From assembly GCA_000004985.1 (NCBI GenBank), contig GG739229.1: a DNA stretch of 3,275 nucleotides; one strand, 5' to 3'. Every line of letters begins with the position of its first letter. Positions within the stretch are counted from its first letter, which is position 1. This document shows, piece after piece, positions 1-3,275 of this stretch. The DNA comes from Naegleria gruberi. Taxonomy: Eukaryota. Under the pieces are notes generated by a model, which searched no databases, was not told the DNA's origin, and was given only the letters and a program-made list of their open reading frames with translations. Made by a program: the position numbers and the translations under genes.

Positions 1-818
1 ATAATCAAAGAGTATGTATTTCCAAACCTACCATTAAGATCTGTCTTCCATAATTGGAAGGAATAGATTGAAGTGTAGTAATTTGGGATGAGTCCAGTAA
101 AGAAGGTTTGAAGCAAGATTTTTGGGGATAATGAGAGTTGAGACTTGTCAATAATTGGGGCATTGTCAAAGGATAGGAGAATTGACATGGAGGTTTTATA
201 TTCATCCACATGATAACTGACATCTCTAGGAAAGCTTATTGGAATTGAAGCTCTCATATTGCTAACCGGATGAATAACACCTTGCATGTAGTATTGGAAG
301 GAAAATGATGTTTCTCTAATTTGAGAAAAAGTTATTGTAAAATTACTAGTCAGTTCAAATTCTCCAAAATTCTCATATTGAATATCGAACTTTAAGAGTT
401 GATTTCTGACTGGATCCTTCCTAACGCCAACTATTTGCATTCCATAAGGATCTACATTCTTCAAAATTGATCTTTGCGTATTCACAGTGATTTTACATGA
501 GTTCACATTTTCACATGACAGATTTGTAAAGTCAAATGAAAACATTTCTGATTCGAATGTATCAAAAAAGAATCTAGCATTAATCTTACTATGTGTGAGG
601 GAATAGTTTCCACTCCATTTACCATTCCTATCGAAATCCAACGTCATGGTTCCATGTAGATTTGGAACAGCAAGTTGATACATGACTATTTTAGATGTGT
701 CCACTGCATAATCGAGACCAAAATGATGAAATTCTCTAATAGGTTCCTGTGTGTTTCCACAACCAACAAGGGCAAGCAATAGAACTACTAATATCAATAA
801 GAAAATATAACCTCTCAT
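1..818 (-). CDS. Partial CDS for a secreted, probably N-glycosylated protein of unknown family. The 5' end is complete and the 3' end runs past the window start. An N-terminal signal peptide is followed by two tandem diverged copies of a domain about 195 aa long.
   Basis: ATG at complement(816..818). I checked every plus-strand triplet starting at positions congruent to 0 mod 3 from 3 to 818 by hand and found no tta, cta or tca (minus-strand stops), so 272 codons are open to the window edge. The nearest upstream in-frame stop is at complement(972..974). Translation: MRGYIFLLILVVLLLALVGCGNTQEPIREFHHFGLDYAVDTSKIVMYQLAVPNLHGTMTLDFDRNGKWSGNYSLTHSKINARFFFDTFESEMFSFDFTNLSCENVNSCKITVNTQRSILKNVDPYGMQIVGVRKDPVRNQLLKFDIQYENFGEFELTSNFTITFSQIRETSFSFQYYMQGVIHPVSNMRASIPISFPRDVSYHVDEYKTSMSILLSFDNAPIIDKSQLSLSPKILLQTFFTGLIPNYYTSIYSFQLWKTDLNGRFGNTYSLI... 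An open frame this long is extremely unlikely by chance in AT-rich DNA. The ORF track omits it, apparently because it has no stop inside the window. Confidence 0.8.
   Translation of the reverse strand, partial: MRGYIFLLILVVLLLALVGCGNTQEPIREFHHFGLDYAVDTSKIVMYQLAVPNLHGTMTLDFDRNGKWSGNYSLTHSKINARFFFDTFESEMFSFDFTNLSCENVNSCKITVNTQRSILKNVDPYGMQIVGVRKDPVRNQLLKFDIQYENFGEFELTSNFTITFSQIRETSFSFQYYMQGVIHPVSNMRASIPISFPRDVSYHVDEYKTSMSILLSFDNAPIIDKSQLSLSPKILLQTFFTGLIPNYYTSIYSFQLWKTDLNGRFGNTYSLI
759..818 (-). other. Predicted N-terminal signal peptide of the minus-strand CDS (M-R-G-Y followed by a 15-residue hydrophobic core, then G-C)
   Basis: Residues 1-20 are MRGYIFLLILVVLLLALVGC. This has a basic n-region (R2), an uninterrupted L/I/V/A core and a small-residue cleavage region (A-L-V-G-C-G-N). 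Downstream sequons NYS, NLS and NFT fit a secretory-pathway protein. Confidence 0.65.
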
Positions 819-853
819 ATATGATTCTATTTTTTTTCTGTTTTGCTGTGAAC

Positions 854-890
854 ATATTGTCGTTTTAGTAATAGTGTGCACAAATAAATT
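854..890. repeat. Left arm of a long-range inverted repeat (28 bp perfect at 854-881, plus 9 bp after an indel at 882-890)
   Basis: The reverse complement of 854-881 is gtgcacactattactaaaacgacaatat, identical to 1928-1955. The reverse complement of 882-890 is aatttattt, matching 1909-1917 after a 10-bp insertion (1918-1927) in the right copy. Confidence 0.75.
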
Positions 891-1061
891 CATAAATCCA
901 TGAATATTCAGGGCCAAATAAGAAAATAATGAAATAATAAAGAAATCGAGTACAGTGAGTTTACAGCGATATTATTTACGTTTCGTAGATGCCCTTTGAA
1001 AAAAAATTTTAAATTTTTCAACAACCTTTTGCAAGCACTTCAAAAATATTTTTATCGCCCT

Positions 1062-1100
1062 TAATAATTCAAAGAAAATGAGAATATTTTTGAATTATTA
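1062..1100. repeat. 12-bp perfect inverted repeat (taataattcaaa / tttgaattatta) with a 15-nt spacer
   Basis: 1062-1073 taataattcaaa is the reverse complement of 1089-1100 tttgaattatta. It lies inside the interior bracketed by the long inverted repeat. The adjacent 12-bp palindrome aaaaatattttt is at 1041-1052. Confidence 0.5.
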
Positions 1101-1475
1101 TAGAGTTCCAGTGATAGTGATAGTGAACAATTAATATTGAAACCAACACATAGATTTTAAGATATAGTTACTCTCATTCACCAATATTTTGAATTAATGG
1201 TGTCACCATCACATGTCTGTAGAATGACTATACTATATTTAATTTTAAATTGTTGACTTTTTTGTGCTTAATTGACTTGAAGATACTGAGCCATCAATAT
1301 GAAACTTTCTCAGATTGTTCTCCTCATCAAGGGGAGTGTATTCATATTTGATACTTGTATGATATTTTATAAATTGACTGAGAGGGAGCGAAATCTTTTT
1401 ATTGAAATGTGACAATTTGACAGATTGTTATTATTATCATATTGAATTCTATTCTAACAATGTGAAATTGATACA

Positions 1476-1660
1476 AGATGTATAGTAGTGTGATTAAATG
1501 TATCTGGTAAAGTTACAGGATGATTGGATGTACTTTCAATGAGATGGAGTGTTCACTAGGAAATACATAGTGTTGACATTGAACATTATGATTAATTTTA
1601 GAATGTAGTTTGAAATGTTTCTAAACTTATTGTGGATGTATTTCATTGATGTATACTCTT
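1476..1660. repeat. Degenerate (G/A)ATGTA-rich low-complexity block
   Basis: GATGTA or AATGTA occurs at about 1478, 1498, 1528, 1601, 1612, 1636 and 1651. There is no ORF here. Confidence 0.35.
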
Positions 1661-1690
1661 AACTGATTCCCAAGAGAGTGTCAGCTAAAA

Positions 1691-1698
1691 CTGTTTCT
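1691..1698 (+). promoter_or_regulatory. Degenerate 21U-RNA (Ruby) core motif CTGTTTCT, one mismatch to CTGTTTCA, with an A-rich 5' flank (taaaaCTGTTTCT)
   Basis: It has 7 of 8 matches to the core and sits in an AT-rich spacer context. Candidate T starts at 1737-1738 lie about 39-40 nt downstream, but there is no clean YRNT. Confidence 0.2.
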
Positions 1699-1908
1699 TC
1701 AATTTTTACGTTTTTTCAAAAATCAGAATTAAAAAATTATAAAATAGGGGCACTAAAAACACAGTAAAGAGAAGAAAAACTTGTTTTTGAAGGGCATTCA
1801 CTTTTAACAACTACGATTTTTAAGGGGTGATTGAAAAAAAACCCAGTAATCGCTGTAATCAAGTTAAATGTCTTTATTTGTTGAGTAAGGTATAAAAGAA
1901 GCTGCGGA

Positions 1909-1955
1909 AATTTATTTCATCAATAGAGTGCACACTATTACTAAAACGACAATAT
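1909..1955. repeat. Right arm of the long-range inverted repeat
   Basis: 1928-1955 gtgcacactattactaaaacgacaatat is the exact reverse complement of 854-881. 1909-1917 aatttattt matches the reverse complement of 882-890. Confidence 0.75.
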
Positions 1956-2504
1956 TGCAGCTGAATTGAATGAAATATTTGCACTATTTTAAGGGCAATT
2001 TTTTGGGCAATTTTACGGACCAATAAATCGGAGTTGGAATCACGAAATTAAAAACCCAAATTATCAAACTTTAGTTTTTAATTCAGCTGAAGGACCAAAC
2101 AAAAAGACAAAACCTACAGCACCACAAATCGTCGGGATGAGGTGCATTCATCGTGATATAGCCATTCAATTAAAATGTGAAATATCAAACGGCACAACTC
2201 TGCTTTAATTTAAATATTCGGAACATTTGTTATTAGTATCAAACTCCACACATTACAAATTAAAAAATCAATCCAAGAAATTAAATCCAAAAAGCCATCA
2301 TCCACCTCATCCAACTCCACTATTCATACCACAAAGTTTCTTTCACATGTTGCTTGATGTAATATTTTTTTTCAGGCATTAAAGCTTCATGTTCCTATTA
2401 GAATCGTAGAAGGAACACATTTCTAATTGGCATCAATTCCGAAAAGCAATTCTGGAAATCTGCTTACTTCACAAAAACGAAAAAACTGTCTCGAAATCAA
2501 TCCT

Positions 2505-2521
2505 CTCTCTTTTTCTCTCTT
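2505..2521. repeat. Polypyrimidine (CT)n-like tract ctctctctttttctctctt
   Basis: This is a direct read of the sequence. It would be a GA-rich (GAGA-type) element on the minus strand. Confidence 0.5.
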
Positions 2522-2606
2522 ATCGTTAGAGTACTCGTATTCAAAATGTTAATTTGAATAATAAAAATTTGTAATAAAGAAAAAGAAGTGATGAATGGAT
2601 CGCATA

Positions 2607-2629
2607 CGACTAATTCTACCGACTAATCC
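2607..2629. repeat. Short direct repeat cgactaattc / cgactaatcc
   Basis: 2607-2616 and 2620-2629 match at 9 of 10 positions, 13 bp apart. Confidence 0.4.
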
Positions 2630-2695
2630 GAAAGTACTATTACACACACGAACGTTTAACGTTGCAACTCCTAATAGGACGAAAAGGTTAGGTTT

Positions 2696-2801
2696 CTAGG
2701 CAGTGCCTTAGCGAATTAATGTTACTTTGTTTAATAGTAGAAGTAACATTCATTGGTGCCTTTATTCGAAATTGATTGGTAGTGAATGTATCACTGCCTA
2801 G
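2696..2801. repeat. Nested inverted-repeat (hairpin-in-hairpin) structure: a 10-bp outer stem enclosing a 14-bp stem with a 13-nt loop
   Basis: Outer stem: 2696-2705 ctaggcagtg is the reverse complement of 2792-2801 cactgcctag. Inner stem: 2714-2727 aattaatgttactt pairs with 2741-2754 aagtaacattcatt at 13 of 14 positions, and the central 10 bp are perfect. An additional small hairpin is at 2782-2798 (gtagtga / tcactgc). Confidence 0.55.
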
Positions 2802-2925
2802 CTGGTTACTGTATCGAATTATTCGAAAGCAATGTTTGCTATCGTGATTGAATGCAACATTTGGAAATGATAAAAATCAAGAAGGTAGCTTTGCATCTAG
2901 GAAGAGATTCGAACACTTTCGAATA

Positions 2926-2933
2926 GTGTTTCA
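2926..2933 (+). promoter_or_regulatory. Near-consensus 21U-RNA core GTGTTTCA (one mismatch at the first position), with a downstream CATT small motif placing a T at 2972
   Basis: GTTTCA, the most conserved part of the core, is intact. A YRNT (c-a-t-T) ends 39 nt after the core. The predicted 21-mer is TGTAATTCTTTATTTATTGCA at 2972-2992. Confidence 0.2.
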
Positions 2934-3081
2934 TCTGTCTTCACTGCTTCAGAATGTTTTATCCTTCTCATTGTAATTCTTTATTTATTGCATTTGTCCA
3001 TAACCATGCAAAATTTAATCCAAAAATCAAATATTTGGCAATTTCCACTTAACAATTCCATCAAGCAGTGTGAGAAATCTG

Positions 3082-3102
3082 CCTTTCATCCTCAAATATT
3101 AA
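3082..3102 (-). ncRNA. Predicted 21U-RNA (piRNA), 5'-TTAATATTTGAGGATGAAAGG-3'
   Basis: The 21 nt begin with the T at minus-strand position 3102, positioned by the upstream CTGTTTCA core and the TATT small motif. The 5' U is as expected for a 21U-RNA. Confidence 0.35.
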
Positions 3103-3142
3103 ATACAGAAAAGAAAACACACTGCAACATTTGTATCATGCT

Positions 3143-3150
3143 TGAAACAG
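3143..3150 (-). promoter_or_regulatory. Exact 21U-RNA (piRNA) upstream core motif CTGTTTCA on the minus strand
   Basis: The plus strand 3143-3150 reads tgaaacag, which is CTGTTTCA on the minus strand. The downstream spacer is AT-rich, and a YRNT small motif (TATT) ends with its T 41 nt past the core, which is the expected spacing for C. elegans type-I 21U loci. Confidence 0.5.
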
Positions 3151-3275
3151 CTGTCAACTTGCCAAAAACAGTAATGCAATAATATGAAGACTTGTGAAGG
3201 CAGCACTGTCCCAAATGTTTAAAAAATCGCATCCTTTCTCTAAAAAAGAAGCACCATTAATTATATAAAAATCGT

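What the first reader, a model, noticed from the sequence alone, without database searches (positions are those of the whole stretch)
1..818. Long minus-strand coding ORF missing from the supplied ORF track encodes a secreted protein of unrecognised family
Reading the minus strand in the frame of the ATG at 816-818 gives 272 consecutive sense codons to the window edge. I verified each triplet by hand. The track lists only a 72-aa ORF in a different overlapping frame (5-223), so the real gene would be missed by anyone relying on the track. The product opens with a textbook signal peptide (MRGYIFLLILVVLLLALVGC). It has few cysteines (C20, C103, C109), three N-glycosylation sequons (NYS, NLS, NFT) and many short beta-like F/S/T-rich segments. 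I cannot match it to a named domain from memory. A nematode-specific expanded secreted family, for example the CUB-like or DUF class that is often pathogen-induced, is a guess only.
Basis: seen in the sequence. Interest (0 to 1): 0.6.

Follow-up and report, generated by a model that had tools for sequence, protein, structure and literature searches.

The report
Naegleria surface-protein gene start, already annotated
The open reading frame is real, but it is the already-annotated first exon of a large, Naegleria-only membrane glycoprotein gene cut off by the end of a tiny scaffold, not a small secreted nematode protein.

Summary
The minus strand from the ATG at 816-818 reads 272 sense codons to the window edge, with a chance probability of about 3e-9. 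It is missing from the ORF list only because ORFs that run off an end are not listed.

The interpretation does not hold. The window is a complete 3,275-bp scaffold of the amoeboflagellate Naegleria gruberi. NCBI already carries this ORF as XP_002668195.1, 'predicted protein, partial'.

Its first 264 residues are 98% identical to the N-terminus of NAEGRDRAFT_73814 (1,232 aa), and colinear with it. They are 30% identical to a second paralog, NAEGRDRAFT_69472 (1,183 aa). Both full-length proteins are type I membrane proteins. Their layout is: signal peptide, three tandem X-Y modules, a Pro/Ser-rich stalk, a membrane-proximal domain, one TM helix and a short tail.

The window encodes the signal peptide plus module X1, the membrane-distal tip. 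So the window is an uncollapsed allele or a very recent duplicate of the 5' end of that gene.

No homologs were found outside N. gruberi, and there is no Pfam or PDB match. AlphaFold models are low confidence and all-beta. A cell-surface receptor or adhesin role is inferred from the architecture only. Interest is low: a known hypothetical gene fragment from an orphan family.

The parts
816..818 (-). Start codon (ATG) of the gene
   Evidence: Translation. This is the same Met1 as in P0001 and P0003, and P0002 aligns from its own Met1.
759..818 (-). Signal peptide, residues 1-20 (MRGYIFLLILVVLLLALVGC). Cleavage is predicted after residue 19, 20 or 21.
   Evidence: Kyte-Doolittle mean of 2.65 over residues 1-24 in the homolog. 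Confident helix at residues 2-20 in the AF2 model. n/h/c regions and -3/-1 rule candidates.
27..758 (-). Module X1, residues 21-264: the membrane-distal N-terminal ectodomain module, predicted all-beta.
   Evidence: 98% identical to P0003 residues 21-264 and 29-30% identical to P0002 residues 18-256. Related to internal modules X2/X3: hhalign E 7.7e-5 over 210 columns, score 37.4 against a shuffled 13.8 +/- 2.2.
22..32 (-). Probable exon 1 / intron 1 junction. There are two candidate GT donors on the minus strand: G|GTAGGT (GT at 31-30) and AG|GTTTGG (GT at 27-26).
   Evidence: The minus strand at 40..1 reads ATCTTAATGGTAGGTTTGGAAATACATACTCTTTGATTAT. Identity to P0003 ends after R264. The deposited partial product is 262 aa, which corresponds to a CDS ending at base 32. 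This is inference; no transcript data were available.
3..26 (-). Open-frame tail (FGNTYSLI) that does not match the full-length homolog. It is probably the start of an intron or a divergent scaffold end.
819..853 (-). Short A-rich 5' flank between the ATG and the left arm of the inverted repeat.
   Evidence: Sequence; inverted-repeat coordinates.

Best explanation
Bases 818 to about 28-32 on the minus strand are the first coding exon of a Naegleria gruberi gene. The window is a whole 3,275-bp scaffold, and the gene runs off its end. The scaffold is an uncollapsed allelic copy, or a very recent duplicate, of the 5' end of NAEGRDRAFT_73814. That gene encodes a 1,232-aa type I membrane glycoprotein of a family seen so far only in N. 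gruberi; its second member is NAEGRDRAFT_69472.

Shown: the exon encodes a cleavable-type signal peptide (residues 1-20) and module X1 (residues 21-264). X1 is the first and most divergent of three ~230-aa beta-rich X modules. In the full-length proteins the X modules alternate with ~90-aa Cys-pair Y modules. These are followed by a Pro/Ser/Thr-rich stalk, a ~110-aa membrane-proximal domain, one TM helix and a ~38-aa basic-start cytoplasmic tail.

Inferred: the protein enters the ER through the signal peptide and is anchored in the plasma membrane with the ectodomain outside. X1 would sit at the tip, held away from the membrane by the stalk. There it would act as a ligand- or substrate-binding head of a cell-surface receptor or adhesin, for example for substratum or prey contact. 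I put identity and architecture at about 0.85-0.9, and the receptor/adhesin function at about 0.35.
For:: the only hit among 5.8 billion proteins is P0001, 'predicted protein, partial [Naegleria gruberi]', 100% identical, on a contig of length 3,275, which equals the window length.
the 90% cluster of P0001 also holds P0003 (XP_002671218.1, NAEGRDRAFT_73814, 1,232 aa, 275-kb scaffold).
258 of 264 residues are identical and colinear from Met1.
exhaustive phmmer over 1.84 billion representatives finds only one further relative, P0002 (1,183 aa, E 6e-13), and it matches at its N-terminus.
P0003 and P0002 are colinear over their full length at 36% identity.
each has exactly two hydrophobic segments, the N-terminal signal and a C-terminal TM helix (P0003 residues 1166-1194) followed by YMRRKQ.
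internal X and Y repeats, with X1 related to X2/X3 (score 37.4; 0 of 150 column shuffles exceed 19.9).
the 7-sequence AF2 model is all-beta, at low confidence.
the ORF is far beyond chance.
(PMC8296547): Naegleria adhesion receptors are unidentified and SadA/SibA orthologues are absent, so the functional niche is open.
Against: The C-terminal 970 residues, including the TM helix, are not in the window. Membrane anchorage of this copy is therefore extrapolated from the 98%-identical full-length gene.
I could not obtain DNA of the 275-kb scaffold, so allele versus duplicate is unresolved and dN/dS is unknown.
The six replacements need at least 7 nucleotide changes in 792 nt, which is high for simple allelic variation.
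There are no transcript or proteomic data.
A 1.1-kb inverted-repeat element begins 36 nt upstream of the ATG. It could mean that this copy has a disrupted promoter.
Confidence: 0.82

Rival explanations
1. The window copy is not an allele. It is a separate, recently duplicated and possibly truncated or pseudogenised fragment of NAEGRDRAFT_73814, sitting in repeat-rich DNA.
For: At least 0.88% nonsynonymous-only divergence, including one two-step replacement, P136I. The remaining 2.4 kb of the scaffold has no coding signal. A foldback-like inverted repeat abuts the start codon. The scaffold is tiny and unplaced.
Against: The frame is intact for 264 codons with no stop or frameshift. Naegleria is described as mainly a heterozygous diploid (PMC9928731). 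Draft Sanger assemblies commonly leave divergent haplotype pieces as small scaffolds (general knowledge). Surface proteins often carry elevated nonsynonymous polymorphism.
Confidence: 0.3
2. One reading: a complete small soluble secreted glycoprotein of a nematode-specific, pathogen-induced family such as CUB-like or DUF.
For: A signal peptide is present. There is no hydrophobic segment within residues 21-272. There is no Pfam domain.
Against: The source is Naegleria gruberi. The ORF has no stop in the window and is colinear with the N-terminus of a 1,232-aa protein that has a TM anchor. No CUB or DUF match appears even at E <= 1. No nematode protein is among 1.84 billion representatives.
Confidence: 0.03
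3. A bacterial lipoprotein gene, present through contamination or horizontal transfer. This is suggested by the lipobox-like L-V-G-C at the end of the signal peptide.
For: Residues 17-20, LVGC, fit the lipobox pattern. There is a sub-threshold Pfam LptM_cons hit on residues 7-22 of P0003 (E 0.55).
Against: No bacterial homolog was found in 1.84 billion representatives or 5.8 billion clustered proteins. The only relatives are two N. gruberi nuclear genes on 275-kb and 395-kb scaffolds. The paralog lacks the Cys, reading VVKGLK. GC is 30-36% with a long non-coding flank, which is unlike a bacterial contig.
Confidence: 0.01
4. A degenerate transposon-derived ORF associated with the adjacent inverted-repeat element.
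For: A perfect 28-nt inverted repeat at 854-881 / 1928-1955 begins 36 nt from the ATG. The frame stays open into it.
Against: There is no transposase or any other Pfam domain in the ORF or in the element. The ORF lies outside the repeat arms. Its homologs are long type I membrane proteins with signal peptide, stalk and TM helix.
Confidence: 0.02

Closest known systems
NAEGRDRAFT_73814 (XP_002671218.1 / UniProt D2VXN6), N. gruberi predicted protein, 1,232 aa
   Same: 258 of 264 residues are identical and colinear from Met1. The signal peptide, Cys102/Cys108 and all three sequons are the same. It falls in the same 90% cluster as the window's deposited product.
   Different: Six replacements: V18A, F30L, D36N, T87A, P136I, R168S. 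The window copy diverges after residue 264 and ends with the scaffold. The relation between the flanking DNA of the two copies is unknown.
NAEGRDRAFT_69472 (XP_002675378.1 / UniProt D2VKQ1), N. gruberi predicted protein, 1,183 aa
   Same: This is the only other detectable homolog: E 6e-13, about 30% identity over query residues 8-238. Its full-length architecture is the same as 73814.
   Different: It is a distant paralog. It has no Cys at the end of the signal peptide, lacks the second Cys of the C-x5-C loop, and has a shorter Pro-rich stalk.
Large type I adhesion receptors of other amoebae: Dictyostelium SibA, the Entamoeba Gal/GalNAc lectin heavy subunit and the Acanthamoeba mannose-binding protein. 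This comparison is from general knowledge.
   Same: The general plan is shared: signal peptide, ectodomain of about 1,000 aa or more built of repeated modules, a single TM helix and a short cytoplasmic tail.
   Different: There is no sequence relationship. Pfam finds no VWA, integrin-beta-like, Cys-rich lectin or other domain. Herman et al. 2021 report no SadA/SibA orthologues in Naegleria (PMC8296547). Function was not tested here.
Jelly-roll / discoidin-type carbohydrate-binding beta-sandwiches (DDR1 DS-like domain, CBM32)

Membership tests
NAEGRDRAFT_73814/69472 family (Naegleria type I membrane glycoproteins; unnamed) | Significant sequence homology of the N-terminal module to family members | tested here: met
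   98% identity to P0003. E 6e-13 to P0002 in an exhaustive phmmer search.
NAEGRDRAFT_73814/69472 family (Naegleria type I membrane glycoproteins; unnamed) | N-terminal signal peptide directly followed by module X1 | tested here: met
NAEGRDRAFT_73814/69472 family (Naegleria type I membrane glycoproteins; unnamed) | Three X-Y module pairs, a Pro-rich stalk, a C-terminal TM helix and a short tail | not testable with these tools
   These parts lie beyond the scaffold end. They are seen only in the full-length homologs. DNA of the larger scaffolds could not be fetched.
Eukaryotic Sec-type cleavable signal peptide | Positively charged n-region, a 7-15 residue hydrophobic h-region, and a polar c-region with small residues at -1 and -3 | tested here: met
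   MRG / YIFLLILVVLLLALV / GCG, with cleavage candidates after residues 19-21 and a helix at residues 2-20. SignalP was not available and cleavage has not been shown.
   0 Pfam families at E <= 1. The source is Naegleria gruberi.
Bacterial lipoproteins | A lipobox with an invariant +1 Cys, conserved in homologs, in a bacterial genome | tested here: not met
   The LVGC motif is present, but the paralog has VVKGLK. There are no bacterial homologs. The LptM_cons hit at E 0.55 is below its cutoff of 27.3 bits.
Integrin-beta-like / Sib adhesion receptors | An extracellular VWA domain, Cys-rich repeats and a talin-binding NPxY tail | tested here: not met
   No Pfam domain in P0002 or P0003. No NPxY in either tail (sequences).

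The most novel reading that the evidence does not exclude
The X and Y modules are new protein folds. On this reading, the two-gene family plus this extra copy would be a Naegleria-restricted, fast-evolving class of cell-surface receptors. They would fill the currently empty slot of adhesion or prey-recognition receptors in Naegleria, and the allelic or duplicate divergence at the membrane-distal X1 tip would reflect diversifying selection on a binding surface.
Probability: 0.12. Interest if true: 0.5.

Novelty: already known. Interest (0 to 1): 0.14.

Why it matters
It matters little for genome annotation. The ORF is already deposited (XP_002668195.1), and a 98%-identical full-length version exists in the same assembly. 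The practical lesson is methodological: ORF tracks that drop ORFs touching a sequence end will hide real genes on short scaffolds. Biologically, the family is an orphan with no homolog among about 1.8 billion representative proteins. It has a clear surface-receptor architecture, in an organism whose adhesion and prey-recognition receptors are unknown. That makes the full-length genes reasonable candidates for a targeted experiment, but nothing here shows function.

Tried and rejected
Searches and models that gave nothing usable:
- Pfam on the ORF, on P0002 and on P0003: nothing, or only a sub-threshold lipobox hit.
- PDB sequence search with the single protein and with the family profile: nothing significant. 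The best hits were DsbP at E 0.036 and EGFR TM peptides at E > 1.
- Word-indexed homology search with P0002 and with the P0003+P0002 profile: no further members. This tool did not even connect P0002 with P0001, so its negative result for the C-terminal 970 residues is weak.
- Metagenome contig scan with the family alignment: 150 pattern matches, none confirmed.
- AlphaFold2 on the single sequence (pLDDT 34.8) and on a 7-row alignment of X modules (pLDDT 39.8, pTM 0.39): too poor for fold assignment.
- Foldseek against afdb50: the library was not available.

Attempts to fetch data that failed:
- DNA of the full-length loci, by exact-protein look-up: not on record. This left DNA-level comparison, dN/dS, and intron or synteny checks impossible.
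- Literature search for the locus tags and accessions, and a search of the supplements of PMC8296547: no mention.
- The N. gruberi genome paper (PMID 20211133) is not held.

Checks on the rest of the window:
- Rfam, tRNA and Pfam scans of bases 819-3275: nothing.

Rejected ideas:
- Nematode origin.
- A small soluble secreted protein.
- A bacterial lipoprotein.
- A transposon ORF.
- Glycosylation sequons as evidence, because their count equals chance.

Full report
OBSERVATION

Translating the minus strand of bases 1-818 in the frame of the ATG at 816-818 gives 272 sense codons, beginning MRGYIFLLILVVLLLALVGC. The ORF lister shows only the 72-aa ORF at 5-223 in another frame. The reason is mechanical: the tool does not list ORFs that run off an end of the source.

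With the local base composition, the per-codon stop probability is 0.070, so 272 open codons have a probability of 2.8e-9. In 2,000 Markov-1 random windows of the same length, the longest open run in any frame averaged 92 codons and never exceeded 182.

Three small corrections:
- The cysteines are at 20, 102 and 108.
- The three N-X-S/T sequons equal the number expected from composition, 2.85 +/- 1.5.
- The frame is open upstream to base 971, with another in-frame ATG at 891-893. Both deposited models and the paralog alignment start at 816-818.

SOURCE AND ANNOTATION STATUS

A search of 5.8 billion clustered proteins returned one hit. It is P0001, 'predicted protein, partial [Naegleria gruberi]', 262 aa and 100% identical, found on a single contig of length 3,275. 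That length equals the window, so the window is a complete small scaffold of the N. gruberi assembly.

The accessions are EFC35451.1 and XP_002668195.1. GC of 26-36% fits this AT-rich genome. The nematode guess is therefore wrong, and the gene is already annotated.

WHAT THE ORF BELONGS TO

The 90% cluster of P0001 also contains P0003 (NAEGRDRAFT_73814, XP_002671218.1, UniProt D2VXN6). It is 1,232 aa long and lies on a 275-kb scaffold. The window ORF matches its first 264 residues with 258 identities and no gaps.

After R264 the two diverge: the window reads FGNTYSLI where P0003 reads KLSQRISI. On the minus strand the sequence there is AAT GGT AGG TTT GG. It offers two GT donors:
- G|GTAGGT. 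A CDS ending at base 32 gives 262 complete codons, which is exactly the length of the deposited partial product.
- AG|GTTTGG. This preserves the match to P0003 through R264.

I infer that the exon ends at base 32 or 28, and that the last 8-10 'codons' are the start of an intron or a divergent scaffold end. I could not check this, because DNA of the larger scaffolds could not be retrieved.

FAMILY

An exhaustive phmmer search of 1.84 billion representatives with the 272-aa query found only P0001 and one other protein. The other is P0002 (NAEGRDRAFT_69472, XP_002675378.1, 1,183 aa) at E 6e-13. It shows about 30% identity over query residues 8-238 and its own residues 18-256.

P0003 and P0002 align over their full length at 36% identity. 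Further searches found nothing:
- the word-indexed search with P0002 and with the two-sequence profile;
- a metagenome-contig scan;
- Pfam;
- PDB sequence searches.

One caveat applies. Only the N-terminal 272 aa received the exhaustive search. The word-indexed tool failed even to link P0002 to P0001, so the absence of relatives for the C-terminal 970 residues is weakly established.

ARCHITECTURE (P0003 numbering)

Each full-length protein has exactly two strongly hydrophobic segments. One is the N-terminal signal. The other is a C-terminal helix (residues 1166-1194) followed by YMRRKQ and a tail of about 38 aa. That is a type I topology by the positive-inside rule.

Profile-profile comparison of sub-alignments shows internal duplication:
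- X2 (362-595) against X3 (695-905): 96.6% probability, E 5.6e-10.
- Y1 (266-361) against Y3 (906-990): 78% probability, E 1.8e-5.
- Y1 against Y2 (596-694): E 1.5e-3.

The window-encoded module X1 (21-264) aligns colinearly over 210 columns with a four-sequence X2+X3 profile, at E 7.7e-5 and 61.7% probability. Shared landmarks are HFG.DY/RFGEDC, NVDPYGMQI/HVDPFSMRV and ISFPRDVSY/VNYPRRIEY.

As a control, 150 column-shuffled targets scored 13.8 +/- 2.2 (maximum 19.9) and the reversed target scored 11.7, against 37.4 observed. X1 is therefore a real but divergent first copy of the module.

After Y3 come a Pro/Ser/Thr-rich stalk (about 990-1040) and a conserved membrane-proximal domain of about 110 aa. 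The overall plan is: SP-(X-Y)x3-stalk-Z-TM-tail.

STRUCTURE

AlphaFold2 on the single sequence gave pLDDT 34.8, with only the signal helix confident. With a 7-row alignment of X modules it gave an all-beta model at pLDDT 39.8 and pTM 0.39.

MECHANISM

Shown:
- a signal peptide of the cleavable type;
- homology to the membrane-distal module of a type I membrane protein;
- modular repetition.

Inferred:
- co-translational ER entry and display at the plasma membrane;
- X1 at the tip of an extended ectodomain raised on a probably O-glycosylated stalk;
- a role as a ligand- or substrate-binding head of a surface receptor or adhesin.

Herman et al. 2021 state that adhesion factors in Naegleria remain mysterious beyond Nfa1, and that SadA and SibA/C orthologues are not found (PMC8296547). 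Such a role is therefore unfilled, but nothing here tests it. I give the functional inference about 0.35.

ALLELE OR DUPLICATE

The six replacements are V18A, F30L, D36N, T87A, P136I and R168S. They need at least 7 nucleotide changes in 792 nt, or 0.88% counting nonsynonymous changes only.

Naegleria is described as mainly a heterozygous diploid (PMC9928731). Small unplaced scaffolds in draft assemblies are often uncollapsed haplotypes (general knowledge). The frame is intact. I favour a divergent allele (about 0.55) over a recent duplicate or pseudogene fragment (about 0.3), but I cannot decide without the other locus's DNA and read depth.

RIVALS REJECTED

- Small soluble nematode secreted protein: rejected on taxon, on the absence of a stop codon, and on collinearity with a 1,232-aa TM protein.
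- Bacterial lipoprotein: LVGC fits a lipobox, and there is a sub-threshold LptM_cons hit at E 0.55. However, the paralog lacks the Cys, there are no bacterial homologs, and the source is a eukaryotic scaffold.
- Transposon ORF: there are no transposase domains, and the ORF lies outside the inverted-repeat arms.

REST OF THE WINDOW

Bases 819-3275 contain no open run longer than 93 codons. They have no Pfam match, no tRNA and no Rfam family.

A perfect 28-nt inverted repeat (854-881 / 1928-1955) starts 36 nt upstream of the ATG. Patchy extended arm similarity continues to about 1060 and from about 1770.

VERDICT

The ORF is real, but it is already known. It is a partial, duplicate or allelic copy of the first exon of an annotated hypothetical gene. 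The taxon and the 'small secreted protein' reading were wrong. The residual interest is that the gene family is an orphan with a clean surface-receptor architecture.

Noticed in passing
window 854-881 and 1928-1955 (extended similarity about 845-1060 and 1770-1964): A perfect 28-nt inverted repeat (ATATTGTCGTTTTAGTAATAGTGTGCAC) has arms 1,046 nt apart, with patchy further arm similarity. The left arm starts only 36 nt upstream of the gene's ATG. It looks like a foldback or MITE-like element. No coding capacity and no clear target-site duplication were found. It could be an insertion polymorphism that kept this haplotype from being merged in the assembly.
   Followed up: partly
window 819-3275: There are 2.4 kb without any open run longer than 93 codons, and no Pfam, tRNA or Rfam match. 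That is unusually empty for the gene-dense N. gruberi genome, and suggests repeat-rich or intergenic DNA on an unplaced scaffold.
   Followed up: partly
window 759-770 (residues 17-20, LVGC): The end of the signal peptide fits the bacterial lipobox pattern and draws a sub-threshold Pfam LptM_cons hit on the homolog (E 0.55). The paralog has no Cys there, so this is a coincidence in a eukaryotic protein.
   Followed up: yes
window 819-971, minus strand: The coding frame stays open for 51 codons upstream of the annotated ATG. It contains an in-frame ATG at 891-893 that lies within the inverted-repeat arm region. Use of that ATG would put 25 residues in front of the signal peptide.
   Followed up: partly
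window 495-515 (residues 102-108, CENVNSC): The only two cysteines of the mature X1 module form a C-x5-C motif. Only the first is conserved in the paralog NAEGRDRAFT_69472, so a small disulfide loop, if there is one, is specific to the 73814 lineage.
   Followed up: no
P0003 residues 266-361, 596-694 and 906-990 (outside the window): The Y modules each carry a conserved 'DP..x.CA[YF]' motif and a second Cys 27-38 residues downstream. This suggests one disulfide per module. Y1 against Y3 is supported by hhalign at E 1.8e-5.
   Followed up: partly
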